From Patescibacteria group bacterium (GTDB lineage Bacteria > Patescibacteriota > Kazan-3B-28 > UBA10110): 58,777 nucleotides of DNA. Each line of letters opens with the position of its first letter. Within the stretch, counting starts at the first letter, position 1. The stretch covers positions 1-58,777 of the forward strand of contig JAFGPN010000003.1 in the NCBI GenBank assembly GCA_016936175.1, given 5' to 3'. The position numbers and the translations under genes are program-made. Under the pieces are notes generated by a model that was not told where the DNA came from, did no database searches, and saw only the letters and a list, made by a program, of their open reading frames with translations. Shown here one piece after another: positions 3,672-58,777 of the stretch.

Positions 3672-6461
3672 TTATGCTCCATGACATTTCTTATACTTTT
3701 TTCCGCTGCCGCATGGACAGGGATCATTGCGGCCAATCTTGGCTTTTTTATCATTAGGATCTCGCACCGCGCTCCCTCTGCTGTCACCCTGAACTGACGA
3801 CGGTTTCCTTGCGTCGTCATCCTGGCTTGCCTGCCCGCCCGTAGCCTTGGCGTAGGAGGGTCCAGGATCGTAAGATTCTGGAGTCTTCTGCTGTCCAACA
3901 GAATCCCCAGAATGACGGGGTTGGGGATCAGAATGACGCTCGGGGGGCATTTCTTTTTTCTCGTCTTCAAAATCTCCCGCCGGTTCCGCGCCACCTTGTA
4001 AACTATAATCCGCGTCCGGCGTAGTTCTGCCATCCGGCAGAACGGAGCCTGGGCTATCGGCTCCCTTCATTGCTAGGTTTTTCTTCTCCGCCATCTCTCG
4101 ACTCTCCGGTGTCTGCCTTTGCGCCTCAACTCGTACCTTAAATATCATGTGGGTAACATCCGAGGCGATGGTTCTGAGCAACCGCTGGAACATGGTATAT
4201 GATTCTTGTTTGTATTCTGCTAACGGGTCCTTTTGGGCATAACCCTGCAGATTAATGCACTCGCGCATTCGCACCATTGCATCGAGATGTTCTACCCACA
4301 AAACATCTACCACCCGCAAGTAAACGGCCTTTTCCACCTGCCGCCAAGTTTCTACCCCAGATGATTGTTCGCGCTCTTCGTATAGTTTTTGGGCGCGCTT
4401 GAGCAGCAGATCGATAATCACCTGTGTGTTCTTGGCATCCTCGATCTCTAACTTAGTTGATTCGCCCAAGTCGAAGATGGTGTTGATTCCTTCGATAACT
4501 TCTTTAATATTCCACTGCTTTTTATCGTCAGTGCAGTGAAAGTTAACTAAACCCTCTATCTCGGACTTGATATCTTCCCAAATTTCATCTTTAAGACTTT
4601 CTTTTAATAAACTATCGCGCCGCTTGGCGTAGATGACGGTGCGTTGGCGGTTCATTACATCGTCGTACTGAACTACGTGTTTGCGGATATCAAAGTTATG
4701 GCCCTCGACCTTTTTCTGCGCCGCCTCGATACTATTGCTGATCATTTTATGCTCTAACGGCTGATCTTCGGGGATGCGCATCGTCTTCATCATGTTTTTT
4801 ATCCGCTCGCTCCCAAACAACCGCATCAGCTCATCTTCCATCGAGACAAAGAACTGCGAAGAGCCCGGATCGCCCTGTCGCCCAGACCGGCCGCGTAACT
4901 GATTGTCGATTCGGCGAGATTCGTGCCGCTCGGTGCCTAAAATATGCAAACCGCCCACCTCGATTACACCTTCGCCCAATTTAATATCGGTACCACGACC
5001 AGCCATGTTGGTGGCGATAGTAACCGCATTTTTTTGGCCTGCATCTTTAATAATCTCGGCTTCCCGTTCGTGGTTCTTGGCGTTTAACACATTGTGTTTA
5101 ACACCCTCTGTCATCAACATGTCCGAAAGTAACTCGGATTTTTCGATAGCGATAGTGCCAACCAAGATTGGCTGACCCTTGGCGTGCCGCTCTTTGATCT
5201 CCCGAACCACCGCTCCAAATTTAGCCGCCTCGCTAATAAACACCAGATCGTTTAAATCTTTGCGAACCATCGGCCGATTGGTCGGGACTACCACCACTTC
5301 GAGGCCATAGATCTTGTAGAATTCTTCCTCTTCGGTCTTGGCGGTACCCGTCATTCCAGCTAATTTGTTATAGAGGCGAAAATAGTTCTGGAAGGTAATG
5401 GTAGCCATCGTTCGGCTCTCTTGTTTTACCTCAACTGCTTCTTTGGCTTCGATTGCTTGATGCAGACCTTCGGAGTAACGCCTACCCACCATTAATCGGC
5501 CGGTAAATTCATCAACAATAATTACTTCACCATCTTTGACCACATAATCGACATCCTTTTTATATAGCGAGTGGGCTCTTAAGGCCTGTTCAATATGATG
5601 CGCCATCGTTACATCCCCGCCTTCGTAAAAACCTTTGATACCCATTAGCTGTTCTACCTTGGTGATGCCCTCGTCCGTCAGAATGGCTGTCCGCATTTTT
5701 TCGTCGATGTTGTAATCGACATTCGGAGTTAACGACGGCACAATTCGAGAAAACTTTCTGTACCATTCGGTCGAATCCTCGTCCGGCGCCGAGATAATTA
5801 ATGGAGTTCTGGCTTCATCGATTAAAATCGAGTCGACCTCATCTACAATGGCAAAATTAAGTTCGCGCTGAACCAGATCTTCTGGCCGAGTGGCCATGTT
5901 ATCTCTAAGATAGTCGAAACCAAATTCGTTATTAGTGCCGTAAATCACATCCGAGGCATACACCGCTCGGCGCTCGTGTTGTGGAGTATCGTGAGTAATG
6001 GCACCGACAGTTAGACCCAAAAATTGATAGATTTGGCCCATCCATTCTGCATCTCGTTTGGCCAGGTAGTCGTTAACCGTAACTACATGCACCCCTTTGC
6101 CGGTTAGCGCATTAAGATAAACCGGCAGAGTAGCGGCCAAGGTTTTACCCTCACCAGTGCGCATCTCGGAGATCTTACCTTGGTGCAGAACGATGCCCCC
6201 CATTAACTGAGTATCAAAAGCTCGCTCACCTAATACACGGTGAGCCGCCTCTCTGGTTACTGCAAACGCTTCTGGCAGTAGCTCGTCTAATGTTTCCCCC
6301 TTAGCCAATCTCTCCTTAAATTCCGTGGTTTTAGACTTTAGCTCATCATCGGATAACGATTTAATCTTATCCTCAAATGAATTAATTAGGGTCACGATTG
6401 GACCCAGTTGGTTTACCGCCTTTTTGTTTGGATCCCCCAGTAGCTTGTCTAACCAGCTCAT
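3672..6461 (-). CDS. secA: Preprotein translocase SecA
   Basis: MRTGEGKT, DEVDSILIDEARTPLIIS, C-terminal CPCGSGKKYKKCH; start taken at MSWLDK. Confidence 0.98.
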   Translation of the reverse strand: MSWLDKLLGDPNKKAVNQLGPIVTLINSFEDKIKSLSDDELKSKTTEFKERLAKGETLDELLPEAFAVTREAAHRVLGERAFDTQLMGGIVLHQGKISEMRTGEGKTLAATLPVYLNALTGKGVHVVTVNDYLAKRDAEWMGQIYQFLGLTVGAITHDTPQHERRAVYASDVIYGTNNEFGFDYLRDNMATRPEDLVQRELNFAIVDEVDSILIDEARTPLIISAPDEDSTEWYRKFSRIVPSLTPNVDYNIDEKMRTAILTDEGITKVEQLMGIKGFYEGGDVTMAHHIEQALRAHSLYKKDVDYVVKDGEVIIVDEFTGRLMVGRRYSEGLHQAIEAKEAVEVKQESRTMATITFQNYFRLYNKLAGMTGTAKTEEEEFYKIYGLEVVVVPTNRPMVRKDLNDLVFISEAAKFGAVVREIKERHAKGQPILVGTIAIEKSELLSDMLMTEGVKHNVLNAKNHEREAEIIKDAGQKNAVTIATNMAGRGTDIKLGEGVIEVGGLHILGTERHESRRIDNQLRGRSGRQGDPGSSQFFVSMEDELMRLFGSERIKNMMKTMRIPEDQPLEHKMISNSIEAAQKKVEGHNFDIRKHVVQYDDVMNRQRTVIYAKRRDSLLKESLKDEIWEDIKSEIEGLVNFHCTDDKKQWNIKEVIEGINTIFDLGESTKLEIEDAKNTQVIIDLLLKRAQKLYEEREQSSGVETWRQVEKAVYLRVVDVLWVEHLDAMVRMRECINLQGYAQKDPLAEYKQESYTMFQRLLRTIASDVTHMIFKVRVEAQRQTPESREMAEKKNLAMKGADSPGSVLPDGRTTPDADYSLQGGAEPAGDFEDEKKEMPPERHSDPQPRHSGDSVGQQKTPESYDPGPSYAKATGGQASQDDDARKPSSVQGDSRGSAVRDPNDKKAKIGRNDPCPCGSGKKYKKCHGA
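3816..3937. repeat. REP doublet translated in frame within the SecA C-terminal linker
   Basis: GTCATCCTGG...CCAGGATC plus GATTCTGG...CCAGAATGAC; the first unit is near-identical to 40225-40275. Confidence 0.8.
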
Positions 6462-6475
6462 ATCTTTTTTTATTG

Positions 6476-6580
6476 TCATCCCGAGCTCCAACCCGTGTCA
6501 TCCTGGCTTGCCATGTCTCGAGCTTGTCGAGAGGTCCAGGATCATACGATTCTGGAATCGCTACGCTCCCCAGAATGACG
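6476..6580. repeat. REP doublet between serS and secA
   Basis: GTCATCCTGG...CCAGGATC / GATTCTGG...CCAGAATGAC with an internal TCTCGAGCTTGTCGAGA palindrome, also present at about 9740-9760. Confidence 0.8.
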
Positions 6581-9710: not shown

Positions 9711-9729
9711 ATTAAGAAGGGATGTTGTA

Positions 9730-9933
9730 CGATTCTGGACCTCTCGATAAGCTCGAGACATGGCAAGCCAGAATGACGGCGAAACTAGATTCCTGCCTGC
9801 GCAGGAATAACGGGGAAAGGGCCTGGATTCCGGATCAGGTCGGGAATGACAATTCAACAAAAAGAAAAAGACCCCGAAGGTTCAGGGTCAATTCCAAATG
9901 ATATTGTAGGATCCTGGACGAAGCCAGGATGAC
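9730..9933. repeat. Cluster of four GTCAT-family REP palindromes
   Basis: GATTCTGG..CCAGAATGAC, GATTCC..GGAATGAC, GATCCTGG..CCAGGATGAC. Confidence 0.8.
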
Positions 9934-16653: not shown

Positions 16654-16777
16654 CCCCGTTAGATTTCACTGGTGGTCGCAACAGGACTCGAACCTGTGAC
16701 CTTTCGGATGTGAACCGAACGCTCTAACCAACTGAGCTATGCGACCCCTTTGTCGCGACCTCGGAAATTTAACGGGG
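16654..16777. mobile_element. 124-bp inverted-repeat cassette containing tRNA-Val
   Basis: CCCCGTTAGATTTC (16654-16667) versus GAAATTTAACGGGG (16764-16777), 13/14 match. Confidence 0.55.
16670..16746 (-). tRNA. tRNA-Val(CAC)
   Basis: Full cloverleaf GGTCGCA...TGCGACC-ACCA; anticodon loop TTCACAT; GGTTCGAGTCC. Confidence 0.95.
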
Positions 16778-19392: not shown

Positions 19393-19630
19393 CCCCCGCC
19401 ATCGAAGAAGAGCCCTTGTCTTTCTTATCCCATTGAGCAAATTGCGCTTACTCCCGCCATTGGAGCCCGAGTGTCCCGAATCGATAAAATTAGCGCTGCC
19501 GAAGCTGTTGTCTGAGCCCCGGTATACCGGGACGAGTTCAGCGAGAGGCGGAAAGCTATATTTTATCTGATGAGGAGCGAGGGCGACTGGCGGAAGATTT
19601 TGGTTACTTTTCTCGGAAAAGTAACAATTA
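19393..19630 (-). repeat. ~250-bp structured repeat, copy B
   Basis: About 110 bp nearly identical to copy C (58650-58777). Confidence 0.8.
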
Positions 19631-20222: not shown

Positions 20223-23222
20223 TTACTTTTTCTTTAAGCCCAAACTAACCGGGTGATTATTCAGCTTAATCTCTGACTTTGCCAATTTAGCATCCGCTTT
20301 AATCTCAGTTGCCAAGATTTCGCCCTGAATGTATTCAGCAAATTTGGTCAGAGTTTTTTTAATTAATTCATCCGAAGAAGAATAAAACAACTCTATTCTA
20401 TCCGACAACGCCAACCCAGACTCTTTACGCATAGTTTGCACCGCCCGAACTATCTCACGAGCTAATCCTTCGGCTTCTAACGCTGGGGTTAACTTGGTAT
20501 CCAACTGGTTAGCGGCCGCTTCGAACTGAATCTTTTTTACGTTTAATTCGTCTGCTATCAAGGCGGCCAATTCGTCGCCTAACTTTTTTTCTTTTGTCTG
20601 CATTAAAGCCAGCGGTTGCCGCACTTTTATCTTAGCCTCCTCCCTTAACGCGTGCCCAGCCTCTACCACCCTGCGGGCAGCTGCCATCTGGACTAACAGC
20701 TTACTGTCTGGCTCCGTCGCTTTTGGCCAATCTGTTAAATGAACCGATGGGGGATTAGCATCAGTTTTGATTGCTCCATACACCATCTCGGCGAACATTG
20801 GCATAAAGGGCGCCAGGATTAGCGAAGTTGAACGCAAAACCTGGTAGAGAGTTTGATAAGCCTGTTGTTTGTCTGCTGTATCCTCGTTTTTCCAAAACCG
20901 CTTACGACTTCGACGAACATACCAGTTAGAGGTGTCGTCAACTAATTTTTCAATCGCCAAACCAGCGTTCATCATATCGTAAACTTCCAGGCGCGCGGTT
21001 ACATCAGTAATCACTTCGTTTACTCGAGCCAACATCCACCGATCAAGCAGGTTTTTGGGCTTAGCGATTTTGGCGTTGGGTTGCCAGCCATCTAAATTAG
21101 CATAAGTGGTAAAGAAAAATAAAGTATTCCATAACGTTAAAACTAATCGGCGGGTAACTTGCTTTAACTCATTTTCGTCAAAACTTTTGGGTAACGCTGG
21201 TTGATTGATGGTACACAAATGCCAACGCAGCACGTCCGAGCCATATTTATTAAAGATATCCCACGGATCCACCATATTACCCTTCGACTTGCTCATCTTC
21301 TTACCGTGCTTATCCATAATGTGGCCGTTCACCAGCACATTTTTATAAGGAGCCCCCTTGTCCAACAAGGTGGAGATGGCCATTAGCGTATAAAACCAGC
21401 CTCGAGTCTGATCGATGCCCTCGGCAATAAAATCGGCTGGGAAAGCGGTCGCAGACCGTCCCGGTTTACCGGGAATACCGTCTATCCGCTCCTTATTTTC
21501 GAAGGGATAGTGCCACTGGGCAAACGGCATCGAGCCACTGTCGAACCAGACATCAATCACCTCCGGCACCCGGGTATATTCCTTGCCATCTTTAACCAGA
21601 ACAATCTCATCGACAAATGGTTTGTGCGGATTAAATTGTTTCTTGTCATCCCAAACTCGTTTCGGGATCTTTTTATTAGATTCTGAACCAAGTTCAGAAT
21701 GACCGGTAACGAGTTTGGGATCTTTGGCTAACGATTTGAGCTCTTCAAAACTACCGATACAGATATAGTCATCGCCATTTCGCCATAGTGGCAACGGCGT
21801 GCCCCAATATCGATCTCGCGAGATAGCCCAATCCTTAACTTCTTTTAGCCATTCGCCGAAGCGACCTTCTTTAATATGTTCTGGAATCCAATTAACGGTT
21901 TGATTATTAGCAATTAATTTATCTCTTAACTGCGACATCTTGATAAACCATGAGTGCATAGCATAGTACAACAGTGCCGTATCGCATCGCCAACAAAACG
22001 GATACTCGTGTTTGTATGGCAAGGCTTTAAACAACAATCCCCGTTTTTCTAAATCAGCGACAATCCCCTGCTCTACCTCGGGATCTTTAACGTACTTGCC
22101 GGCCCACTTTTCTACCCCGGGTAAGAACTTCCCTTCAAGAGAAACGGTGTGTACCTTCGGTAAATTAACCTGCTCTCCGAGCTGATAATCATCTTCTCCG
22201 TACATCACAGCGGTATGGACTACACCGGTCCCATCCTCGGTGGTAACAAAGTCGGCCGGATAGATTTTAAACGCATTGCCAAAATTTTCCACCGTGTCAG
22301 AGATCGAGCCCGGAAACAACGGCTCGTATTCTTTGCCAACTAAATTCTTGCCGGTAAACGTTTGAATTATCTTAGGCGCTTTATCAAAGACTTTCTCTAA
22401 TAAGTCTTTGGCTAAGATTACCTCGTCCGTGCCATCTTTTACTTTTACATATTTAATCTTGGCATCAACCGCCAAGGCCACATTGCCCGGCAGAGTCCAT
22501 GGCGTAGTTGTCCAAGCCAAAATATATACATTATTCTGACCCGCTGACCCGCTATCCCGCTGACCCGCTGTTTTAAGTTTAAACTTTACATAAATCGAGG
22601 TGTCTTCTACTTCTTTATAACCTTGCGCTACTTCATGGCTGGATAGAGCCGTGCCACAGCGCGGACAGTAGTGCACTACTTTGTGCCCCCGGTAGAGCAA
22701 CCCTTTATCCCAAACCTGTTTTATAATCCACCAGACTGATTCGATATAGTTAGGGTCATAGGTAATGTAGGGGTGCTCCAAGTCCAACCAAAAGCCGCTC
22801 CGGCGGGTAAACTCCTCCCAATCTTTTTTGTACTCCCAGACACTATTTTTAGCCTGCTCGTTGAACTCTGCTACCCCGTATTTTTCGATAGCCTGCTTGT
22901 TCTTGAGCCCCAGTTTTTTCTCGATGGCTATCTCCACCGGCAATCCATGGGTGTCCCAGCCTGCTTTCCGTTCTACCAAAAAACCCTGCATCGTCTTAAA
23001 CCGCGGGAAGATATCTTTAAAATAGCGGGCTATCAAGTGATGCAGACCCGGCTTAGCATTGGCAGTTGGTGGCCCCTCAAAAAAAACATACCGTTTGCCC
23101 TGAGCTTGTCGAAGGGCTAAACTTTTTTCGAAGATCTTAGTTTTATCCCAAAGTTCCAGAACTGCTTCTTCTTGTTCTGGCAGATTTAAATTGGAACTAA
23201 TTTTTTTGAACTGAGCCATCAC
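20223..23222 (-). CDS. ileS: Isoleucyl-tRNA synthetase, type 2
   Basis: EGPPTAN, GWDTHGLP, WTTTPWTLP, KMSKS; long type-2 C-terminus. Confidence 0.97.
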   Translation of the reverse strand: MMAQFKKISSNLNLPEQEEAVLELWDKTKIFEKSLALRQAQGKRYVFFEGPPTANAKPGLHHLIARYFKDIFPRFKTMQGFLVERKAGWDTHGLPVEIAIEKKLGLKNKQAIEKYGVAEFNEQAKNSVWEYKKDWEEFTRRSGFWLDLEHPYITYDPNYIESVWWIIKQVWDKGLLYRGHKVVHYCPRCGTALSSHEVAQGYKEVEDTSIYVKFKLKTAGQRDSGSAGQNNVYILAWTTTPWTLPGNVALAVDAKIKYVKVKDGTDEVILAKDLLEKVFDKAPKIIQTFTGKNLVGKEYEPLFPGSISDTVENFGNAFKIYPADFVTTEDGTGVVHTAVMYGEDDYQLGEQVNLPKVHTVSLEGKFLPGVEKWAGKYVKDPEVEQGIVADLEKRGLLFKALPYKHEYPFCWRCDTALLYYAMHSWFIKMSQLRDKLIANNQTVNWIPEHIKEGRFGEWLKEVKDWAISRDRYWGTPLPLWRNGDDYICIGSFEELKSLAKDPKLVTGHSELGSESNKKIPKRVWDDKKQFNPHKPFVDEIVLVKDGKEYTRVPEVIDVWFDSGSMPFAQWHYPFENKERIDGIPGKPGRSATAFPADFIAEGIDQTRGWFYTLMAISTLLDKGAPYKNVLVNGHIMDKHGKKMSKSKGNMVDPWDIFNKYGSDVLRWHLCTINQPALPKSFDENELKQVTRRLVLTLWNTLFFFTTYANLDGWQPNAKIAKPKNLLDRWMLARVNEVITDVTARLEVYDMMNAGLAIEKLVDDTSNWYVRRSRKRFWKNEDTADKQQAYQTLYQVLRSTSLILAPFMPMFAEMVYGAIKTDANPPSVHLTDWPKATEPDSKLLVQMAAARRVVEAGHALREEAKIKVRQPLALMQTKEKKLGDELAALIADELNVKKIQFEAAANQLDTKLTPALEAEGLAREIVRAVQTMRKESGLALSDRIELFYSSSDELIKKTLTKFAEYIQGEILATEIKADAKLAKSEIKLNNHPVSLGLKKK
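21645..21703. repeat. REP doublet in frame inside ileS
   Basis: GTCATCCC..GGGATCT / AGATTCTGAA..TTCAGAATGAC; compare intergenic 53228-53279. Confidence 0.8.
22536..22570. repeat. 8-bp tandem repeat (CTGACCCG)x4 inside ileS
   Basis: Direct reading; related arrays at 50120-50151 and 54025-54056. Confidence 0.8.
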
Positions 23223-27551: not shown

Positions 27552-27574
27552 CGTACTGCTCCTTTCTTCTTGGT

Positions 27575-27800
27575 GTCATTCTGAACTCGTTTCAGAATCT
27601 TTCTGATTCGAGATCCTGAAATAAATTCAGGATGACATTAAATTATTTAATAAATTGTTTAATTATCCTTATTGTCATTCCGACCTCTCCTCTTTGTCAT
27701 TCTGACCTCTCCTCTTTGTCATTCTGAGTGAAACGAAGAATCTATAAATATTCTTATATCCTTCGTCCCGACTCGTCTGGGCTCGAGGACGACAAGTCGA
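27575..27800. repeat. Cluster of GTCAT-family REP palindromes, with a direct duplication
   Basis: GTCATTCTGAA..CAGAATCT, GATCCTGAA..CAGGATGAC, and (GTCATTCYGACCTCTCCTCTTT)x2. Confidence 0.8.
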
Positions 27801-28253
27801 TCATTGATTGACTAACTTTTTAATCTCGGCTTGAAAATCGGTCACATCTACAAACTCGCGATAAACCGAAGCAAACCGAATATAAGCTACTTTATCTACT
27901 TTTTTGATGCCGGCTAAAACAATCTCTCCAATCTGACAGCTGGTGACCTCGGAATCATACTGCTCCATAATGTCGCGCACGATCCGATTAACTAAATTTT
28001 CGATAACGTTTTGGCTAATGCTAAGTTTTTCAAATGCTTTGTAAACTCCGCGCGCCAACTTATCTCGATCAAAATTTTCGCGGGATCCATTTTTCTTAAC
28101 TACCAACAAATTAGGCGATTCGATTCGTTCGTACGTAGTAAATCGATGGTGGCATCTATCGCATTCGCGCCGCCGCCTTATGCTTAACACATCTTCGATT
28201 TCACGCGAATCAATTACACTCGTTTCCCCTTTTTTACAGGCCGGACACTTCAC
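27801..28253 (-). CDS. nrdR: Transcriptional repressor NrdR
   Basis: CPAC..VIDSR..IRRRREC..C..RFTTYE; ATP cone; AYIRFASVYR. Confidence 0.97.
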   Translation of the reverse strand: MKCPACKKGETSVIDSREIEDVLSIRRRRECDRCHHRFTTYERIESPNLLVVKKNGSRENFDRDKLARGVYKAFEKLSISQNVIENLVNRIVRDIMEQYDSEVTSCQIGEIVLAGIKKVDKVAYIRFASVYREFVDVTDFQAEIKKLVNQ

Positions 28254-28382
28254 CCCGTTAGAAACTTAAAAAATAACTTCTGAAACTTTTGTGATAAAAA
28301 ATTTTGCATATCTTTATTGGTTGATTAGCGAGTAGTAAAAATAATTTACCAATTATTTTTACTACGAGGTTCTAATGGGGTG
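28251..28382. mobile_element. 132-bp inverted-repeat cassette at the nrdR start
   Basis: CACCCCGTTAGAA versus TTCTAATGGGGTG, 12/13 match; the nrdR GTG start is in the left arm; internal 15-bp perfect inverted repeat. Confidence 0.6.
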
Positions 28383-29751: not shown

Positions 29752-29998
29752 AAATCTTTTTTCTAATCAAATTGTCTGCTCCCACAAAACAAAACCGGCC
29801 AATCCCTCCCAAGTTATCCACCACAACCGGATTGTGGATAAGCCCCATTAGAGATTGCTCCCTACCCCGTCATCCTGAATTTATTTCAGGATCTATAGAT
29901 GCTGAAACGAGCCTGTCCGCGGACGCGGGATGCGGCCAGGGTTCAGCATGACAATTAACTTTTTATTGTTTATTGCCGGATCGGAAGCGGGGTAAGGC

Positions 29999-33887: not shown

Positions 33888-34205
33888 CTATTTAATTAAA
33901 CTATCTGCATCAATCGGCTCCCACTCGCCATCCACTTCGCGATAGACCGTAAGATGGCTAACTTTTTCGTCCGGCGAATAGACATATTCATACTGCGCCG
34001 AGCTTTTACCACGGCGATGTGCCCCGGTTACCTTTTTATCTAAAATCGCTGGCCGCACCGTGCGCACCAGCTTAACTCTCCCGATCGGCGCCTCAAAGAT
34101 TATCGTTTCGATCTCGGACACATCTTCTTGCGTTTTCTCTCGCGAGAGCACCTTAAAATTCGTCAAAATCCGATCTAATACTTCTCCCCATTTATCATCT
34201 CTCAT
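33888..34205 (-). CDS. Hypothetical protein
   Basis: 105-aa ORF MRDDKW...; the ATG directly follows CTAACGGG. Confidence 0.75.
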   Translation of the reverse strand: MRDDKWGEVLDRILTNFKVLSREKTQEDVSEIETIIFEAPIGRVKLVRTVRPAILDKKVTGAHRRGKSSAQYEYVYSPDEKVSHLTVYREVDGEWEPIDADSLIK

Positions 34206-34491
34206 CCCGTTAGAAGCCCTTAGCAAAAAATAATTTTAACCGGTTTCGAATATATCGTTTACCCATAGCGGATTTGAGATATCGTTCTCGCGCCCTCGCA
34301 TCATCCCGCTCAAGAGACACTTCATAATAAATCAACTTCCACGGTGTTCCACAGATTTAGTTGATGTATTTTTATCGCCATTGTGGGTTAAAATTCTTTT
34401 TTACAGATCGTTGGTGAATCCAGTATACAGCTTCCCGTTGCGTTGACTAACCAGAACATAAATGTACCACTTAGATTGGATTCTAATGGGA
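34205..34491. mobile_element. 287-bp inverted-repeat cassette carrying a GIY-YIG gene
   Basis: TCCCGTTAGAA versus TTCTAATGGGA, 10/11 match; hisS TAG stop in the right arm, nuclease TAA stop in the left arm. Confidence 0.6.
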
Positions 34492-34496
34492 CTCAT
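34210..34496 (-). pseudogene. Small GIY-YIG nuclease, inactivated
   Basis: Own translation: WYIYVLVSQRNGKLYTGFTNDL*KRILTHN, then a frameshift to PWKLIYYE...ARARERYLKSAMGKRYIRNRL. Confidence 0.85.
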
Positions 34497-35796
34497 ATAC
34501 GTTCGGCACCCTTAAACCTTTTTCCTCTAATTTTTTTAAAGTAATTTTTACTACATCCCGATCAATCACTGTCTCCTGCGCTCGATCTACCATATCTCTA
34601 ATAATCACGTTTTTATCGTGGACCTCTTGATCTCCAATAATAACGGTTAGAGGGGTGTGCAATTTAGAGGCCAGGCGAAGCTGGGCCTGAATACTACCGC
34701 GACCTAAAGCACTCGATACTCGCAGATTGGCTAGTTCTAGTTTTTCGATAACTTCAATTGCTTTAGGCTTTGCCCGGTCGCCCAACTGAACAATAAATAT
34801 ATCGCTCTGGACCAAATCCGGCACTGCTATCGCCTGTTGCTTTAGAGTATCGATTACCCGCTCTACCCCGCCAGCATAACCAAAAGCTGATGTGTCCGGG
34901 CCGCCCAATTGTTTTATCAAAGTGTCGTAACGGCCACCACCGCCCAAAGACAGCTCTTCGCTGCCCCGCACCACTACCTCAAACACAGTGTGAGTATAGT
35001 AATCTAACCCACGCACCAACTTAGGGTCCAGTTCGTACTCCACACGCATCTCGTCTAAATATTCCAACACTTTAGTAAACCGCTTTTTGGACTCGTCGTC
35101 CAAGCTATCAATTAACGAAGATGAGATACCATCCAAGATCTCGCGACACTTGCCAACCTTGCAATCCAACACCCTTAACGGGTTCTTCTTTAATCGCAAT
35201 TTACAATCGGCACAAAGATCTTTTTTATTCTTCTCCAGTAGTTTACCCAGGGCAGTCATCATCTTGCCCTTAGATCTTTCGGTGCCCAAACTATTAATCT
35301 TAATCACCACCTCTTGCATGCCCAGCCTCTCGTGGAATTTGGCTATAGTTTGAATTAACATCGCGTCTACGATCGGGTCACTATCCCCTAACAACTCTAA
35401 TCCGCACTGATAGAACTCTCTAAACCGCCCGGCTTGCGGCCGATCGTATCTAAACATTGGCCCCCAATAATATAGCTGAATCGGCTGGGGCAAAGCCTGC
35501 ATCCCGTGTTCGATATATGCTCGTGCCACTCCCGCCGTGCCCTCTGGCCTTAAAGTTAAACTGTTAGCGCTTTTGTCCTTAAAGGTATACATCTCCTTGC
35601 TGACAATATCGGTAAACTCACCCACGCTCCGTTTAAATAGTTCCGTGGATTCAAACGTAGGGATAATAATCCGCTCAAAACCGGCGGCTTGAGCCGCTTC
35701 TCTAAAATTGTTTTCTACCCAAAACCAATATTTCTGTTCGTCGGGTAAAATATCGTGGACGCCCCTGGGCGCCTGGATCTTTTTTTTATCTGTCAT
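34483..35796 (-). CDS. hisS: Histidyl-tRNA synthetase
   Basis: LRPEGTAGV, FRYDRPQAGRFREFYQ, LVRGLDYY, GGGRYD. Confidence 0.98.
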   Translation of the reverse strand: MTDKKKIQAPRGVHDILPDEQKYWFWVENNFREAAQAAGFERIIIPTFESTELFKRSVGEFTDIVSKEMYTFKDKSANSLTLRPEGTAGVARAYIEHGMQALPQPIQLYYWGPMFRYDRPQAGRFREFYQCGLELLGDSDPIVDAMLIQTIAKFHERLGMQEVVIKINSLGTERSKGKMMTALGKLLEKNKKDLCADCKLRLKKNPLRVLDCKVGKCREILDGISSSLIDSLDDESKKRFTKVLEYLDEMRVEYELDPKLVRGLDYYTHTVFEVVVRGSEELSLGGGGRYDTLIKQLGGPDTSAFGYAGGVERVIDTLKQQAIAVPDLVQSDIFIVQLGDRAKPKAIEVIEKLELANLRVSSALGRGSIQAQLRLASKLHTPLTVIIGDQEVHDKNVIIRDMVDRAQETVIDRDVVKITLKKLEEKGLRVPNVYESH

Positions 35797-35810: not shown

Positions 35811-36707
35811 CTATCTCTCTCTCCGCCTACCCATCCATAACAAGATAGGAGCCGCAATAAAGATCGAAGAATAAGTTCCAATTACTATGCCAATTAGCAG
35901 TGCTAAAGTGAAAAACTTGAGGGTCGCACCGCCAAACAATGTCATCGCCAGCAATACTAACACCACCGTAAAAGAAGTATTAATAGAACGAACTACCGTT
36001 TCGGAGATACTATCATTACAGATGGTAATCAGGTCTTCGCCAGCCCGGCGACGGAGATTTTCCCGAATCCGATCAAAAGTAACAATGGTGTCGTGAACCG
36101 AGAAACCAAGCAGGGTTAACAAGGCGGCGATAAACATCCCATCCACTTCGGCCCCAAAATAATGGCTCATCACTGAGTAAGCTCCCAACAAAATAATCAC
36201 ATCATGAACCAAGGCAACCAATGCCCCAAAACCAAAATCCCACGAGGTCAGCGGTTTGGGCACTCGGCGAAAAGCATAAGCTAGATAAAGCATAATCCCC
36301 AACGCGGCGATGATTACGGCCAAAATCGCTTTTCTAACTATGTCGGCGCTAATCGTTGGGTCTACGCTCTCAAACCGCAACTCGGAAGCCTCGTCAAATT
36401 TAGTCTGGAGAAAGGCCAAGATGTCGTTCTTGTTTTGATTATCAATCTGAGCACTCCGGATAAAGTAGCGATCTCCCTCGGTTGATTGCGGAGCCACATC
36501 CAATCCAACCACTTGCTTATAAGCTTCGATAATCGCTGGTTTAACCTCTGCCCCATCTTTAGGACCAGCTAACTGCACCTCTAAATTAGTGCCACCAGCA
36601 AAATCAATTCCGGTGCGATAACCAAACACACTAATAGATGTGATACTAGACAGAATCAAGACCAACGAGACAATCAGCCAAATTTTACGAGCACCTAAAA
36701 TATTCAT
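35811..36707 (-). CDS. secF: Protein translocase subunit SecF
   Basis: GIDFAGGT, GFSVHDTIVTFDRIRE, RSINTS, GTYSSIFIA. Confidence 0.96.
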   Translation of the reverse strand: MNILGARKIWLIVSLVLILSSITSISVFGYRTGIDFAGGTNLEVQLAGPKDGAEVKPAIIEAYKQVVGLDVAPQSTEGDRYFIRSAQIDNQNKNDILAFLQTKFDEASELRFESVDPTISADIVRKAILAVIIAALGIMLYLAYAFRRVPKPLTSWDFGFGALVALVHDVIILLGAYSVMSHYFGAEVDGMFIAALLTLLGFSVHDTIVTFDRIRENLRRRAGEDLITICNDSISETVVRSINTSFTVVLVLLAMTLFGGATLKFFTLALLIGIVIGTYSSIFIAAPILLWMGRRRER

Positions 36708-36837
36708 CCCGTTAGAAATTCTTGGCGCAAAAATACTTTAGTTTTTTTACGCGCGCTAATTATTATGGAGTGAAGTGAGCAGTTATTCATCTTTAGTTAA
36801 TGGTTTAGGGTTATCTTCGACAAATTTCTAATGGGAT
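36706..36837. mobile_element. 132-bp inverted-repeat cassette between secD and secF
   Basis: ATCCCGTTAGAAATT versus AATTTCTAATGGGAT, 14/15 match; the secF ATG overlaps the left arm. Confidence 0.65.
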
Positions 36838-39544: not shown

Positions 39545-39669
39545 CCCCATTAGAGATTCTTGGCAAAAATACAAGGTATTTTTGCGGCTCACCCTCTCGC
39601 CAACAGGGTATAATCTTGGTGGATGCTGATATCAACCCTTGCAAACATAATGGTAAATCTCTAATTGGG
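39545..39669. mobile_element. 125-bp inverted-repeat cassette at the thpR start
   Basis: CCCCATTAGAGATT versus AATCTCTAATTGGG, 13/14 match; the GTG start begins on the last base; internal TATAAT at 39609-39614. Confidence 0.55.
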
Positions 39670-40253
39670 TGAAAAAACGGCTGTTTATCGCCATCAACTT
39701 CGACTCTGCCACCAGGCTGGCTATTGCTCGCCTGATGTCGCAACTCCCCAACCAGCCGGGGCTAAACAAGGTCAAGGTTGATAATCTCCATCTTACCTTA
39801 TTATTTTTAGGCGATACCGAAGAGGAGCTAATCCCCCAAATCTCTCAGCAACTGGATGAGGTGTGCAAAGATTTTAGCTCCCTGAGCTTAAAATTTGGCC
39901 GTTTGGGCGGCTTCCCCGATCTCAAACACCCCCAAGTCATTTGGATTGGGCTGGAGGGTAACCACCTTAGCCAGCTCCACCAGGTCATCGCTGAGCGGCT
40001 ATCCCCCCTAGTGCCAACAGCCGACACCAAGCCCTTCCGCCCTCATCTAACCGTCGCCAGATCTAATTCTCACCTCCACCCAGAATCTACCGTTAAATTT
40101 CTTCTCCAACTCAGCCAACAACCCGTCAATCTGCCCCCGGTAGCAGTCTCTCAAATAGACTTAATGGAAAGCGCCCTCGCGGCGGGTGGCTCTATCTATA
40201 AAAGAATATCCACTCACCCCTTCCGTCGTCCTGGCTTGTCTGCCCGCCCGTAG
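39669..40253 (+). CDS. thpR: RNA 2',3'-cyclic phosphodiesterase, 2H family
   Basis: RLFIA, HLTLLFLG, PHLTVAR. Confidence 0.92.
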   Translation: MKKRLFIAINFDSATRLAIARLMSQLPNQPGLNKVKVDNLHLTLLFLGDTEEELIPQISQQLDEVCKDFSSLSLKFGRLGGFPDLKHPQVIWIGLEGNHLSQLHQVIAERLSPLVPTADTKPFRPHLTVARSNSHLHPESTVKFLLQLSQQPVNLPPVAVSQIDLMESALAAGGSIYKRISTHPFRRPGLSARP

Positions 40254-40388
40254 CCTTGGCGCAGGAGGGTCCAGTACCGTATAATTCTACGATTCTGGAG
40301 TCAGCCGATGATCATCGGCTCGACATTGGGAATCCAGGCCTGGATCCTGAATCCGAACTTGGCCCTTGGCCAGTCAGTCCAGGATGAC
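40225..40388. repeat. Cluster of GTCAT-family REP palindromes
   Basis: The first unit matches secA-internal 3816-3865; the thpR stop lies within it. Confidence 0.75.
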
Positions 40389-46695: not shown

Positions 46696-46815
46696 CCCCG
46701 TTAGAAGTCCGGAGAAGCCCTGGGAATAATGCAGAGCCACAGCGCATTAGTTGTCGTTTCACTATCCGCCAACCCCATTACATTAGCCAATCTCATCAGC
46801 GACTTCTAACGGGGT
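46695..46815. mobile_element. 121-bp cassette with 15-bp perfect inverted repeats ACCCCGTTAGAAGTC
   Basis: Arms at 46695-46709 and 46801-46815. Confidence 0.65.
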
Positions 46816-50090: not shown

Positions 50091-50197
50091 AAAAAAATTC
50101 GTCTCCTCCGAGACGAACGCTAACCAGCTAACCTGCTTATGGGCTAACCTGCCAACATTCCTTCTCGGTAGGATTTAGTTTAGTACCTACGGTCTTA
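50091..50197 (-). promoter_or_regulatory. L10 leader with attenuator
   Basis: TAAGACCGTAGG..TAAA..CCTACCGAG motif; terminator TTCGTCTC-GGAG-GAGACGAA-T7; promoter TTGACA-17-TAGACT at 50215-50243. Confidence 0.8.
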
Positions 50198-53216: not shown

Positions 53217-53227
53217 ATCTTCCTTCT

Positions 53228-53279
53228 GTCATCCTGAATTTATTTCAGAATCTAGATTCTGAAATTAGTTCAGAATGAC
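53228..53279. repeat. GTCAT-family REP doublet
   Basis: GTCATCCTGAATTTATTTCAGAATCT / AGATTCTGAAATTAGTTCAGAATGAC; similar at 29869-29951 and 54198-54249. Confidence 0.85.
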
Positions 53280-53285
53280 ATCGTA

Positions 53286-54074
53286 TTAAAGCGAGCTGAG
53301 ATCCACCTTAATTCCAGGGCCCATAGTCGAGGCCAACACTATCTTTTGGAGATATGTGCCTTTGGCCGAAGCCGGACGAGCACTAGATAATGCCTTAAAT
53401 AAAGTAGCAAAATTGCTCGTTAATCCATCTTTACCGAGCGAAATTTTGCCAAAACCAACATGAATAATGGCATCCTTGTCTAGTCGAAATTCGACCTTAC
53501 CCTTTTTGAATTCGGTCACTGCTTTGGTTACATCCTTGGTTACCGTACCGGTCTTGGGGTTAGGCATCAAACCCTTGGTACCCAAAATCTTACCGATCTT
53601 GCCAATTTTAACCATCATCTCAGGGGTAGCGATAGCCACGTTAAATCCCAGCCAACCATTTTTGATCTTTTCGACCAGGTCCTCACTACCAACAAAATCA
53701 GCACCCGCCTTTTTGGCTTCTGTAGCCTCGGCACCTTCAGCAAACACTAAAACCGTGGTGTCCTTACCCAATCCTGCTGGCATCGCCACCGTTCCCCGAA
53801 TATTTTGGTCAGCCTGCTTAGGGTCCAACCCAGTTTGAATATGCGCTTCGACCGTAGCATCAAACTTAACCGGTGATGTCTGCACCAATAAGTCCAGCGC
53901 TTCTTGAATCGGGTATAACTTAACCCGGTCAACTAGCTTGACCACGTCTAAATACTTCTTGCCTCGACCCCCCTTTGCTCTGCGGGCTACGGAGGGCTGC
54001 ACCTCGCTTACCGTCGTCTTCTTACTGACCCGCTTACCCGCTGATCTGCTAACCTGCTTTTTCGTATCTACCAT
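53286..54074 (-). CDS. rplA: 50S ribosomal protein L1 with N-terminal extension
   Basis: KFDATVE, GLMPNPKTGT, STMGPG; SD AGGAGG. Confidence 0.97.
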   Translation of the reverse strand: MVDTKKQVSRSAGKRVSKKTTVSEVQPSVARRAKGGRGKKYLDVVKLVDRVKLYPIQEALDLLVQTSPVKFDATVEAHIQTGLDPKQADQNIRGTVAMPAGLGKDTTVLVFAEGAEATEAKKAGADFVGSEDLVEKIKNGWLGFNVAIATPEMMVKIGKIGKILGTKGLMPNPKTGTVTKDVTKAVTEFKKGKVEFRLDKDAIIHVGFGKISLGKDGLTSNFATLFKALSSARPASAKGTYLQKIVLASTMGPGIKVDLSSL

Positions 54075-54178: not shown

Positions 54179-54254
54179 ATTATGGATATAACCTTTCGTC
54201 ATCCTGAATTTATTTCAGGATCCATGTGCTGAGACTAGTTCAGCATGACATTTT

Positions 54255-58616: not shown

Positions 58617-58777
58617 CTCCCCGCCATCGGAGGAGAAAGCCCTTATCCCATCGGAGCCCGAGTGTGCTGAATCAACAAAACCACCGCTGACGAAGCTGTT
58701 GTCTGAGTCCCGGTATACCGGGACGAGTTCAGCGAGAGGCGGAAAGGTGGTTTTGTTAGATGAAGAACGAGGGCGAC
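58617..58777 (-). repeat. ~250-bp structured repeat, copy C (truncated by the window edge)
   Basis: Near-identical to 19460-19590. Confidence 0.8.

What the first reader, a model, noticed from the sequence alone, without database searches (positions are those of the whole stretch)
34205..34496. Decayed GIY-YIG nuclease framed exactly by the cassette ends: candidate mobiliser
SEEN: an ORF missing from the supplied track, WYIYVL...LYTGFTNDL*KRILTHN..., with an in-frame TAA (about 34401-34403), a frameshift before PWKLIYYE, and the AR.RERYLK tail. Its stop codon is the TAA of the TTCTAAC arm, and the hisS stop is the TAG of the other arm. The 287-bp unit is essentially one gene long. KNOWN: the motifs match the minimal standalone GIY-YIG (YhbQ/UPF0213-like) family. 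INFERENCE: this is the coding version of the ~125-bp empty cassettes, so a tiny nuclease rather than a transposase may spread them.
Basis: partly seen in the sequence, partly recalled or inferred. Interest (0 to 1): 0.75.

Follow-up and report, generated by a model that had tools for sequence, protein, structure and literature searches.

The report
Decayed tiny GIY-YIG mobile element
This is a broken copy of a 287-bp mobile DNA element that carries only a 94-residue GIY-YIG nuclease gene; it sits on the start codon of the gene after hisS, and one close relative has the copy intact while another has the site empty, so the family looks like an undescribed kind of miniature transposon.

Summary
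A minus-strand GIY-YIG pseudogene lies at 34496..34210 (Pfam PF01541, E 2e-17). It has one in-frame TAA and a 2-nt frameshift, and it fills a 287-bp unit bounded by inverted arms TCCCGTTAGAA / TTCTAATGGGA. The ORF's stop lies in one arm and the hisS stop in the other.

Three genomes of one genus (candidate division Kazan) show three states at this site: empty (G001), intact 94-aa gene (G002) and decayed (this window). The flanks carry a 4-bp TGAR duplication of the downstream gene's start.

The same arms frame about 40 short units (75-133 bp) in this 670-kb genome, and 21 of those 40 have perfect 4-bp, mostly TNNA, duplications. The secF start codon was hit independently in at least three lineages.

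Among the 79 best homologues in public genomes, 74 carry these arms (control 2 of 77). No Y1, rve or DDE_Tnp_1 transposase was found.

The closest published system is the Ssn nuclease/hairpin-repeat pairing (Chenal 2025), but the arms do not fit its repeat motif.

That the nuclease itself moves the elements is inferred, not shown. The short units share only their ends with the gene-bearing unit.

The parts
34205..34491 (-). Whole element, 287 bp: arm - GIY-YIG pseudogene - arm
   Evidence: Boundaries were set from the arms and flanking duplication. The unit aligns end to end, at 83.9% nt identity, with the intact element at the same site in G002.
34205..34215 (+). Left arm TCCCGTTAGAA. On the gene strand it reads TTCTAACGGGA and contains the ORF's TAA stop (34212-34210). 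Its last base, 34205, supplies the A of the downstream gene's ATG.
34481..34491 (+). Right arm TTCTAATGGGA. On the gene strand it reads TCCCATTAGAA and contains the hisS stop TAG (34485-34483). It is read as codons 2-5 (S-P-I-R) of the GIY ORF. It carries one G-to-A change relative to G002.
34201..34204 (+). Target-site duplication, copy 1 (CTCA on +, TGAG on the gene strand). It is part of the start ATGAG of the downstream gene.
34492..34495 (+). Target-site duplication, copy 2 (CTCA on +, TGAG on the gene strand). Together with base 34496 it gives the ATG used by the GIY ORF.
34404..34496 (-). GIY-YIG ORF, N-terminal 31 codons (MSPIRIQSKWYIYVLVSQRNGKLYTGFTNDL), containing the GIY and YIG strands
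   Evidence: this piece alone: PF01541 E 5.9e-5
34401..34403 (-). In-frame TAA. The intact orthologue in G002 has CAA (Gln) at this position.
34350..34353 (-). Frameshift: TGTG where the intact orthologue has TG, i.e. 2 extra nt
   Evidence: alignment
34213..34344 (-). GIY-YIG ORF, C-terminal 44 codons in the shifted frame (PWKLIYYE...KLFFAKGF), including the catalytic Glu of YYE
34483..35796 (-). hisS. Its last codons were rewritten by the insertion: ..VYESH* here, ..IYESR* in G002 and ..IYEG* at the empty site in G001.
33888..34205 (-). Downstream 105-aa gene (MRDDKWGEV..., no Pfam hit), whose start codon was the insertion target. It is conserved across the order.
36707..36836 (.). Gene-less 130-bp unit with the same arms, between the secD stop and the secF start. 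It is flanked by the duplication TTCA (TGAA on the gene strand), i.e. ATGAAT on both sides.
46696..46814 (.). Gene-less 119-bp unit with perfect arms CCCCGTTAGAAGT and duplication TCAA
7837..7956 (.). Gene-less 120-bp unit with arms TCCCGTTAGAGAT. The flanks match at 3 of 4 positions (TTTA / TTTT).
28253..28380 (.). Gene-less 128-bp unit between divergent genes. Both ends abut an outward GTGAA start, so the flanks are inverted rather than direct.
39545..39669 (.). Gene-less ~125-bp unit with degenerate arms (CCCCATTAGAGAT / ATCTCTAATTGGG). The same unit is present in G002.
   Evidence: (I22)
16654..16777 (.). Arm pair framing tRNA-Val(CAC) (16670-16746, minus strand), with no flanking duplication

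Best explanation
The locus is a decayed copy of a ~280-bp mobile element. The element consists of two 11-14-bp inverted arms (YCCCGTTAGAR...YTCTAACGGGR) and one gene, a single-domain ~94-aa GIY-YIG nuclease that runs from arm to arm.

Shown:
- The unit is an insertion relative to an empty allele in the same genus and in the sister genera examined.
- It duplicated 4 bp (TGAR) of the start region of the gene after hisS.
- The nuclease ORF therefore starts on the host ATG left behind upstream.
- The host gene keeps an ATG rebuilt from the element's terminal A plus the second copy of the duplication.
- The hisS C-terminus now ends inside the arm.
- The copy in this window is dead (nonsense codon plus frameshift), while the orthologous copy in a congener is intact.
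- The same arms bound about 40 gene-less units in this genome. These have the same 4-bp, mostly TNNA, duplications and the same liking for ATGAA/GTGAA start codons.

Inferred:
- The nuclease is the enzyme that mobilises both its own unit and, in trans, the gene-less ones.
- In single-stranded DNA the two arms pair into a stem whose base is the element/duplication boundary.
- A structure- and sequence-specific GIY-YIG nuclease, Slx1-like in fold and Ssn-like in being tied to a cognate repeat, cuts there and at TNNA targets with a 4-nt stagger.
- Host ligation and repair synthesis complete the move.

In this genome the intact paralogue at C1:14017-14292 is the only candidate source of activity for these arms.
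For: - Anatomy of the locus.
- Three allelic states at one site in one genus, with the TGAR duplication. Sister genera lack the element at this junction.
- Flank identity among the three genomes is 76-80% and the element is 84% identical between G000 and G002, which fits an old orthologous insertion.
- Independent insertions of three different arm-bounded units at the secF ATGAA start (G000/G002, G008, G007), with empty congeners.
- Duplication statistics: 21 of 40 perfect at offset 1, against a permutation mean of 1.9 (max 9); offsets 0, 2 and 3 give 0, 0 and 1.
- The closest paralogue and its orthologues in 6 other genomes all carry these arms, and more distant paralogues carry other inverted repeats.
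- 74 of 79 public homologues carry the arms, against 2 of 77 in the control. Units are 277-294 bp. 41 of 73 have perfect duplications, 30 of them TGAA.
- Arm-pair counts are higher in genomes with an intact cognate gene (Mann-Whitney p = 8e-4, not corrected for phylogeny).
- No Y1_Tnp, rve or DDE_Tnp_1 was found in four arm-rich genomes.
- The AF2 model of the intact orthologue has pLDDT 83.8 and a GIY-YIG fold. Its nearest solved folds are UPF0213 BH0048 and the Slx1 nuclease domains (TMq 0.61-0.64).
- Family-invariant residues are Y11, Y13, Y24, R34, H38 and E58.
- The arms pair as the terminal stem in ssDNA folds (MFE and centroid).
- Precedent: Ssn GIY-YIG nucleases bind a cognate repeat in ssDNA and cut beside it, and their genes are flanked by that repeat (PMC11893778).
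Against: - No assay shows that this protein cuts anything.
- GIY-YIG enzymes hydrolyse DNA and have no known strand-transfer chemistry, so the joining step has no identified enzyme.
- The gene-less units share only about 12 terminal nt with the gene-bearing unit. Several conserved cargo families exist, so something else may select or move them.
- 17 of 40 arm pairs have no duplication, including all 77-bp units and two pairs that frame tRNA genes.
- No two units in this genome exceed 86% identity, so there is no sign of recent activity.
- Only three transposase families were excluded.
- The count/gene association is not corrected for phylogeny.
Confidence: 0.6

Rival explanations
1. Passenger or domesticated nuclease. 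The arm-bounded units are mobile but are moved by an unidentified host or foreign enzyme. The GIY-YIG gene is cargo, or is a host-useful nuclease acting on the arms (for example limiting incoming ssDNA, as proposed for SsnA), rather than their transposase.
For: - Short units have unrelated interiors and conserved cargo families of their own.
- tRNA genes can sit between arms.
- GIY-YIG chemistry lacks strand transfer (established knowledge).
- SsnA's demonstrated role is modulation of transformation, not transposition (PMC11893778, abstract).
Against: - The gene fills the unit from arm to arm in 74 of 79 homologues across many phyla, and its start and stop are built from the insertion site.
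- That is the design of an element travelling with its own gene, not of a host gene.
- Decayed copies are frequent.
- No Y1, rve or DDE_Tnp_1 enzyme was found in arm-rich genomes.
Confidence: 0.22
2. Homing endonuclease that invades pre-existing empty cassettes. The arms belong to a resident palindromic landing pad, and the GIY-YIG gene is copied into its centre by cleavage and repair.
For: - GIY-YIG homing endonucleases (I-TevI, Seg proteins) are well known.
- Arm pairs without the gene are about 20-fold more common than with it.
Against: - At the hisS site the alternative allele is fully empty, with no arms at all.
- No uninterrupted arm palindrome exists in the genome.
- The gene-bearing unit keeps no interior sequence of any short unit.
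- The protein has no DNA-binding extension (94 aa, single domain).
Confidence: 0.08
3. Host punctuation. The arms are expression or RNA-processing signals (a portable leader or processing stem next to start codons and tRNAs), and the GIY-YIG gene merely lies between two of them.
For: - 16 of 80 unit ends abut the start codon of an ORF of at least 60 aa, against 1% background.
- Two tRNA genes are framed by arms.
- The arms pair in folds.
Against: - Presence/absence with 4-bp duplications between congeners, and repeated independent hits at one start codon.
- Orthologous genes and tRNA-Val in relatives work without arms.
- No Rfam family matches.
Confidence: 0.06
4. The gene is not dead: the TAA and the frame change are bypassed by recoding (stop read-through plus programmed frameshift).
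For: The family's catalytic residues are still recognisable in the two ORF pieces on either side of the lesions.
Against: - The orthologue in G002 has an ordinary sense codon and an uninterrupted frame at both places.
- TAA is used as a normal stop by neighbouring genes such as secD.
- Decayed paralogues with single stops are common in relatives.
Confidence: 0.02

Closest known systems
Ssn nucleases with NTS/SRM hairpin repeats (SsnA of Neisseria meningitidis; Chenal et al. 2025, Nat Commun, PMC11893778)
   Same: - Both are single-domain ~94-aa GIY-YIG proteins.
- In both, the gene is flanked on both sides by a cognate short repeat that is also scattered in many copies through the genome.
- Different nuclease subfamilies go with different repeats.
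- The paper's authors themselves note that the repeat-gene-repeat layout looks like an insertion sequence.
- Classical Ssn-like paralogues with SRM-type repeats also occur in this genome (C1:21422).
   Different: - The arms here are two halves of a long-range inverted repeat, not self-contained hairpins, and they do not fit the published SRM search pattern (0 of 48).
- The units show 4-bp target duplications, empty alleles and start-codon insertion. None of this is reported for Ssn.
- The ORF uses the arms and the target for its own start and stop.
- This subfamily lacks the ..KKWNREWK.. type C-terminal tail seen in this genome's Ssn-like paralogues.
- Assignment to cd10448 could not be tested.
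Bacterial insertion sequences and their MITEs (e.g. Correia/NEMIS of Neisseria, RUP, ERIC)
   Same: Both have terminal inverted repeats, fixed-length target duplications, many gene-less short copies beside a few gene-bearing ones, and insertion polymorphism between relatives.
   Different: - The only encoded protein is a GIY-YIG nuclease, which is not a DDE, DEDD, HUH, serine, tyrosine or Cas1-type transposase.
- The gene-bearing unit is about 280 bp, several-fold smaller than a typical IS.
- The short units are not deletion derivatives of it.
REP/REPIN sequences with RAYT (Y1, IS200/IS605-like) transposases
   Same: In both, a single-copy nuclease-type gene is bracketed by the very repeat that is dispersed through the genome as inverted doublets. 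A single-strand hairpin substrate is plausible in both.
   Different: - No Y1 transposase is present.
- REPINs and IS200/IS605 elements make no target duplication, whereas these units make 4 bp.
Slx1 / UPF0213 (YhbQ, BH0048, EF2693) branch of the GIY-YIG superfamily
   Same: These are the nearest solved sequences and folds. Slx1 cuts branched and stem-loop DNA at junctions, which is the activity the model needs.
   Different: - Slx1 carries a zinc-finger domain and needs Slx4.
- UPF0213 proteins have no assigned substrate and no reported flanking repeats.
- Sequence similarity is weak (E 8.5e-5).
GIY-YIG homing endonucleases (I-TevI, T4 Seg proteins)
   Same: Both are selfish GIY-YIG genes that spread through populations.
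   Different: Homing enzymes have a separate DNA-binding domain, no inverted arms and no target duplication. They move only into the cognate allele by homologous repair. Structural similarity here is weaker than to Slx1.

Membership tests
GIY-YIG superfamily (Pfam PF01541) | Profile match above the curated cut-off | tested here: met
   63.5 bits against a cut-off of 22.6, E 2.2e-17, for the read-through product
GIY-YIG superfamily (Pfam PF01541) | Conserved catalytic Tyr, Tyr, Arg, His and Glu | tested here: met
   Y11, Y13, Y24, R34, H38 and E58 are invariant in 29 family members. The same residues are readable in the window's two ORF pieces.
GIY-YIG superfamily (Pfam PF01541) | Three-stranded sheet with flanking helices (beta-beta-alpha-beta-alpha-alpha) | tested here: met
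   AF2 model of the intact orthologue, pLDDT 83.8. Foldseek top hits are GIY-YIG domains.
Ssn nucleases (Chenal 2025) | Single-domain GIY-YIG protein of about 94 aa | tested here: met
   94 aa in G002 and 86-97 aa in the family
Ssn nucleases (Chenal 2025) | Gene flanked on both sides by a cognate repeat that is dispersed in the genome | tested here: met
Ssn nucleases (Chenal 2025) | Repeat fits the SRM hairpin pattern HGTCWY..RNCYNB | tested here: not met
   0 of 48 arms match, and there is no SRM match within 300 nt of the window copy or the C1 copy. The pattern does hit both flanks of the Ssn-like paralogue at C1:21422.
Ssn nucleases (Chenal 2025) | Assignment to CDD cd10448 (GIY-YIG_unchar_3) | not testable with these tools
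   No CDD library is available. NCBIfam gave only a sub-threshold TIGR01453 hit.
Ssn nucleases (Chenal 2025) | ssDNA-only, site-specific cleavage next to the repeat | not testable with these tools
   Needs a biochemical assay
Transposable element of IS/MITE type | Terminal inverted repeats | tested here: met
   11-14 bp in this genome and up to 20 bp elsewhere
Transposable element of IS/MITE type | Fixed-length target-site duplication | tested here: met
   4 bp: 21 of 40 perfect in G000 against a permutation mean of 1.9, and 41 of 73 in public gene-bearing units
Transposable element of IS/MITE type | Occupied versus empty alleles in close relatives | tested here: met
   hisS junction and secD/secF junction
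Transposable element of IS/MITE type | Encodes a transposase of a recognised catalytic class | tested here: not met
   The only ORF is GIY-YIG. No Y1_Tnp, rve or DDE_Tnp_1 was found in arm-rich genomes.
Transposable element of IS/MITE type | Observed transposition event | not testable with these tools
UPF0213 / YhbQ-like minimal GIY-YIG | Significant sequence similarity to solved UPF0213 proteins | tested here: inconclusive
   BH0048 (1ZG2) E 8.5e-5, 26 bits; EF2693 (1YWL) E 0.085. BH0048 is the top Foldseek hit, but with TM 0.51.
REP/RAYT system | Y1 (HUH) transposase gene flanked by the repeat | tested here: not met
   PF01797 is absent from G000, G002, G009 and G010
Integron gene cassette / attC | Order inverse core RYYYAAC ... 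core GTTRRRY within 57-141 bp | tested here: not met
   The order here is the reverse (GTTAGAA first, TTCTAAC second): 22 pairs against 1
GIY-YIG homing endonuclease | Separate DNA-binding domain, and insertion only into a cognate allele without duplication | tested here: not met
   The protein is single-domain. The units sit at many unrelated sites with 4-bp duplications.

The most novel reading that the evidence does not exclude
The arm-GIY-arm unit is an autonomous DNA transposon whose only protein is a ~90-aa GIY-YIG nuclease. If so:
- GIY-YIG would be a further catalytic class of prokaryotic transposase.
- At 277-287 bp this would be the smallest self-mobilising element known.
- It would be built to live on host start codons. 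It borrows the host's ribosome-binding site and ATG for its own ORF, and hands ribosomes back through an ATGA (or TAA-N4-ATG) stop/start junction, so insertion is nearly harmless.
- It would also drive a large, old population of gene-less units, some carrying tRNA genes, across Patescibacteria and beyond.
Probability: 0.45. Interest if true: 0.9.

Novelty: new variant of a known kind. Interest (0 to 1): 0.72.

Why it matters
If the nuclease does move these units, transposition would gain a new enzyme class and a new lower size limit for an autonomous element. It would also give the very common, function-less small GIY-YIG genes of uncultivated bacteria a role.

The start-codon design shows how a parasite can insert into tiny, gene-dense genomes without killing genes. 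A family of short, sequence-specific, possibly single-strand nucleases with a conserved 10-nt site could also be a useful tool, as the Ssn authors argue for their enzymes.

This locus adds a clean natural series (empty, intact, decayed) at one site in one genus. That series supplies ready-made substrates and controls for the assay.

Tried and rejected
- **Integron attC reading.** The arm order is the reverse of an attC site.
- **Resident palindromic landing pad.** No uninterrupted arm palindrome exists: arm-to-arm distances are one outlier at 39 nt, 29 at 65-123, two at 266 and 275, and the rest above 700.
- **Short units as internal-deletion derivatives of the gene.** With the arms trimmed, no unit resembles any GIY unit (z <= 2.9). 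The 37-nt match between 34202-34238 and 36704-36740 (D18) is arm plus start codon plus a short A/T-rich stretch.
- **Hammerhead ribozyme in the 112/117-bp family.** The words CTGATGAG...GAAAC suggested it, but there is no Rfam hit at the gathering threshold or at E <= 1, and I could not draw the stems by hand.
- **Other Rfam families for any unit.** None matched.
- **RAYT/IS200, rve or DDE_Tnp_1 as mobiliser.** All absent.
- **Published SRM motif.** It does not match the arms.
- **PHROGs.** No hit.
- **Literature.** No paper in the held library links GIY-YIG to REP, MITE or transposons in Patescibacteria, apart from the Ssn paper.
- **tRNA-Val locus.** The orthologous tRNA in G001 and G002 has no arms, but I could not resolve how the armed version arose.
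Full report
**1. The observation**

On the minus strand, an ORF starts at ATG 34496-34494 and reads MSPIRIQSKWYIYVLVSQRNGKLYTGFTNDL. It then meets TAA at 34403-34401. It continues KRILTHNGDKNTSTKS, changes frame near 34350-34353, and ends PWKLIYYEVSLERDDARARERYLKSAMGKRYIRNRLKLFFAKGF with TAA at 34212-34210.

Read through, the product matches Pfam GIY-YIG PF01541 at 63.5 bits, E 2.2e-17, against a cut-off of 22.6 bits.

The ORF's stop is the TAA inside TTCTAACGGGA. The stop of the upstream hisS gene (34483-35796) is the TAG inside TCCCATTAGAA. These two 11-mers are an inverted repeat, with one G-to-A difference, and they bound a 287-bp unit at 34205-34491.

**2. The arms are not chance**

The window belongs to a 670-kb, 18-contig genome.

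- Strict arm pairs in the order CC[GA]TTAGA ... TCTAA[CT]GG occur 22 times at 102-126 bp and twice at 274 and 283 bp. The opposite order occurs once.
- With up to three mismatches there are about 40 pairs of 75-133 bp.
- In 41 related genomes the pattern is frequent in this order of bacteria and rare elsewhere. The reversed-pattern control gives 0-1 per genome.

Both long pairs contain a GIY-YIG gene. One is the window's pseudogene. The other is an intact paralogue at C1:14017-14292, 46% identical.

**3. It is an insertion**

The 105-aa gene downstream of hisS is conserved across the order. Three genomes of the same genus show three states at this junction.

| Genome | State | Junction sequence |
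|---|---|---|
| G001 | empty | ...CCAACTATCTATGAAGGATGAGAAATGG |
| G002 (candidate division Kazan bacterium RIFCSPLOWO2_01_FULL_48_13) | intact 94-aa gene | ...ATATGAG\|TCCCGTTAGAAGCC...GGCTTCTAACGGGA\|TGAAGGATGAAAAATGG |
| G000 (this window) | pseudogene | ...ATATGAG\|TCCCATTAGAATCC...GGCTTCTAACGGGA\|TGAGAGATGATAAATGG |

- At the empty site, hisS ends ..IYEG* and overlaps the downstream ATGAAGGATGAG.
- So 4 bp (TGAR) of the host start region are duplicated.
- The GIY ORF begins on the host ATG left upstream.
- The host gene's ATG is rebuilt from the element's terminal A plus the second copy of the duplication.
- The hisS C-terminus is rewritten to ..YESR* in G002 and ..YESH* here.

The sister genera examined have no such element at this junction, so empty is the ancestral state. 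The three genomes are about equally distant in the flanks (76-80% nt identity). The element is 84% identical between G000 and G002. This fits an old, orthologous insertion.

Relative to G002, the window copy has CAA changed to TAA and two extra bases (TG). It is therefore a pseudogene. Decayed paralogues with single stops are common in relatives.

**4. The short units behave the same way**

The 130-bp unit between secD and secF (36707-36836) is flanked by ATGAAT on both sides.

- The same unit is present in G002.
- G001 is empty, with the secD stop overlapping the secF ATG.
- Two other genera (G008, G007) carry different arm-bounded units at the very same ATGAAT, while their relatives (G003, G010, G004-G006, G011) are empty.
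- That makes at least three independent hits on one start codon.

In this genome, 21 of 40 pairs have a perfect 4-bp direct repeat just outside Y-CCCGTTAGAA...TTCTAACGGG-R.

- Permuted pairings give a mean of 1.9 and a maximum of 9 in 5000 trials.
- Other offsets give 0-1.
- The outermost bases are complementary in 37 of 40 pairs.
- The duplicated words are mostly TNNA.
- 16 of 80 unit ends abut the start codon of an ORF of at least 60 aa, against 1% background.

**5. The nuclease and the arms travel together**

- Orthologues of the intact paralogue in six other genomes (60-74% identity) all have these arms. More distant paralogues are bracketed by other inverted repeats.
- A scan of one genome per species found at least 566 loci encoding relatives.
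- Of the best 79 loci, 74 have flanking inverted repeats of at least 11 matches, nearly all YCCCGTTAGAR / YTCTAACGGGR, with units of 277-294 bp. The displaced-window control gives 2 of 77.
- Hosts span many Patescibacteria lineages, plus MAGs labelled Omnitrophota, Planctomycetota, Thermodesulfobacteriota and others.
- 41 of 73 gene-bearing units have perfect 4-bp duplications, 30 of them TGAA.

The typical member reads ATG AA|T CCC GTT AGA G.. (MNPVRD...) and ends ..TCT CTA ACG GGA|TGA A (..SLTG*). Its start is the host ATG, and its stop lies in the duplication and overlaps the rebuilt host ATGAA. The Kazan/Levy/Uhr subtype, to which the window copy belongs, instead stops at the TAA inside the arm, four bases before the host ATG.

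Arm-pair counts are higher in genomes that hold an intact cognate gene (p = 8e-4, uncorrected for phylogeny). No Y1_Tnp, rve or DDE_Tnp_1 transposase is present in four arm-rich genomes.

**6. What the protein looks like**

- Twenty-nine family members share invariant Y11, Y13, Y24, G26, R34, H38 and E58, plus a YLK-GMGK motif.
- An AlphaFold2 model of the intact orthologue (pLDDT 83.8) has the beta-beta-alpha-beta-alpha-alpha GIY-YIG fold.
- The nearest solved folds are UPF0213 BH0048 and the nuclease domains of Slx1 (TMq 0.61-0.64, rmsd 2-3 A). I-TevI and UvrC come well behind.
- By sequence, only the UPF0213 proteins are found in the PDB, and weakly.
- As ssDNA, the 287-bp unit and the secD/secF unit fold with the two arms paired as the closing stem, in both MFE and centroid.

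**7. Mechanism**

Shown: a TIR-bounded unit that inserts with a 4-bp duplication, prefers TGAA at start codons, and is tightly linked to one nuclease subfamily.

Inferred: the nuclease recognises the paired arms, or one arm in single-stranded DNA. It cuts at the stem base and at TNNA targets with a 4-nt stagger, and host ligation and fill-in finish the job.

Two precedents support this. Ssn GIY-YIG nucleases bind a cognate repeat only as ssDNA and cut a few nucleotides beside it, and their genes are bracketed by that repeat (PMC11893778). Slx1 cuts branched DNA.

The weak points are these:
- GIY-YIG enzymes have no known joining chemistry.
- The interiors of the short units are unrelated to the gene.
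- 17 of 40 pairs lack duplications.
- No two units in this genome exceed 86% identity.

I put about 0.9 on 'decayed copy of a mobile arm-bounded element' and about 0.6 on the whole statement, including the nuclease as mobiliser.

**8. Comparison with what is known**

The closest published system is Ssn/NTS-SRM. Its authors remark that NTS-ssnA-NTS resembles an insertion sequence and compare it with RAYT/REP, but they report no target duplications or empty sites.

The arms here do not fit the published SRM pattern (0 of 48). That pattern does hit both flanks of a classical Ssn-like paralogue elsewhere in this genome.

The system works like an IS with MITEs but fails the 'known transposase class' criterion. 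It is not an attC cassette (reversed arm order), not REP/RAYT (no Y1 transposase), and not a homing endonuclease (no DNA-binding domain, and many unrelated target sites). Full-text searches found no description of such elements.

**9. Earlier notes of this scan**

Notes on another piece of this genome, and on other genomes, already call this family a tiny GIY-YIG transposon with TNNA duplications, start-codon insertion and tRNA cargo. I had reached the duplication and start-codon reading before consulting them. I then tested the claims independently here, and they hold.

The pointer to the Ssn paper came from those notes. I read the paper and tested its repeat motif myself.

What this locus adds is the three-state allelic series within one genus and a dated, decayed copy.

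**10. Limits**

- All genomes are MAGs.
- CDD assignment was not possible.
- Only three transposase families were searched.

Noticed in passing
window 16654-16777 (tRNA-Val(CAC) at 16670-16746, minus strand): A whole tRNA gene is framed by the same arms (CCCCGTTAGATTTC / GGAAATTTAACGGGG) with no flanking duplication. The best-matching tRNA-Val(CAC) in G001 and G002 has no arms (in G002 the sequence beyond one flank is shared with this window) and a different acceptor/T stem. A tRNA-Met is framed likewise at C18:50211-50322 and in G002 (C4:123981-124092).
   Followed up: partly
genome contigs, e.g. C15:22-98, C14:55958-56034, C3:135-211, C7:3577-3654: A 77-bp sub-family (8 copies) has ~18-bp arms, conserved sub-terminal parts and a variable centre. 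One end sits on a start codon, and the other is followed by a recurrent RCRRGY word (ACAGGC, GCAAGT, GCGAGT) instead of a duplication. The same family occurs in other genera and families (G014, G015).
   Followed up: partly
window 46696-46814 and C4:36305-36416, C7:1414-1525, C1:12091-12202: The 112-117-bp sub-family contains GTCGCTGATGAG...GTGAAACGAC, words reminiscent of a hammerhead core. No Rfam family matches, and I could not draw hammerhead stems.
   Followed up: partly
window 28253-28380: This unit lies between two divergent genes. Each end abuts an outward GTGAA start, so the flanks are inverted rather than direct. This may mean two insertions at two start codons were merged by recombination.
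   Followed up: no
window 21644-21703, 27574-27637, 29868-29896, 53222-53281, 54192-54251: A second repeat family of short hairpins (GTCATCCTGAAnnnnTTCAGGATGAC type) is present in the window. Similar hairpins (GTCATTCCCGCG..CGCGGGAATGAC) flank longer GIY-YIG paralogues on other contigs (C1:21422, C2:10225). These fit the published Ssn/SRM pattern, so this genome holds both kinds of nuclease-repeat pairing.
   Followed up: partly
window 19457-19555 and 58648-58746: A 99-nt direct repeat, 90% identical and 39 kb apart. Its nature was not examined.
   Followed up: no
window 3815-3879 and 40224-40288; also 6497-6547 / 9727-9777: More dispersed repeats of 50-65 nt (89-92% identical) that begin with GTCATCCTGGCTTGC. 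They probably belong to the structured repeat families noted on other pieces of this genome.
   Followed up: no
window 22536-22581, 50120-50152, 54025-54070: Short tandem arrays of an 8-nt unit (CTGACCCG / CTAACCTG) at three sites.
   Followed up: no
L037 (G008) and L040 (G010), hisS / downstream-gene spacer: In these two genomes the same junction is widened to about 360 and 650 bp by other repeats (GTCATCCTGA hairpins and repeated ..CTCCAAGGGCTGGAGCTAA.. blocks). This hisS 3' junction therefore seems to be a recurrent landing place for several element types.
   Followed up: no
G009:C40:2268-2518: The cognate arm-type GIY-YIG gene of G009, a genome with 21 arm pairs, appears split into two overlapping pieces (residues 1-49 and 45-86). 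It is another decayed copy.
   Followed up: no
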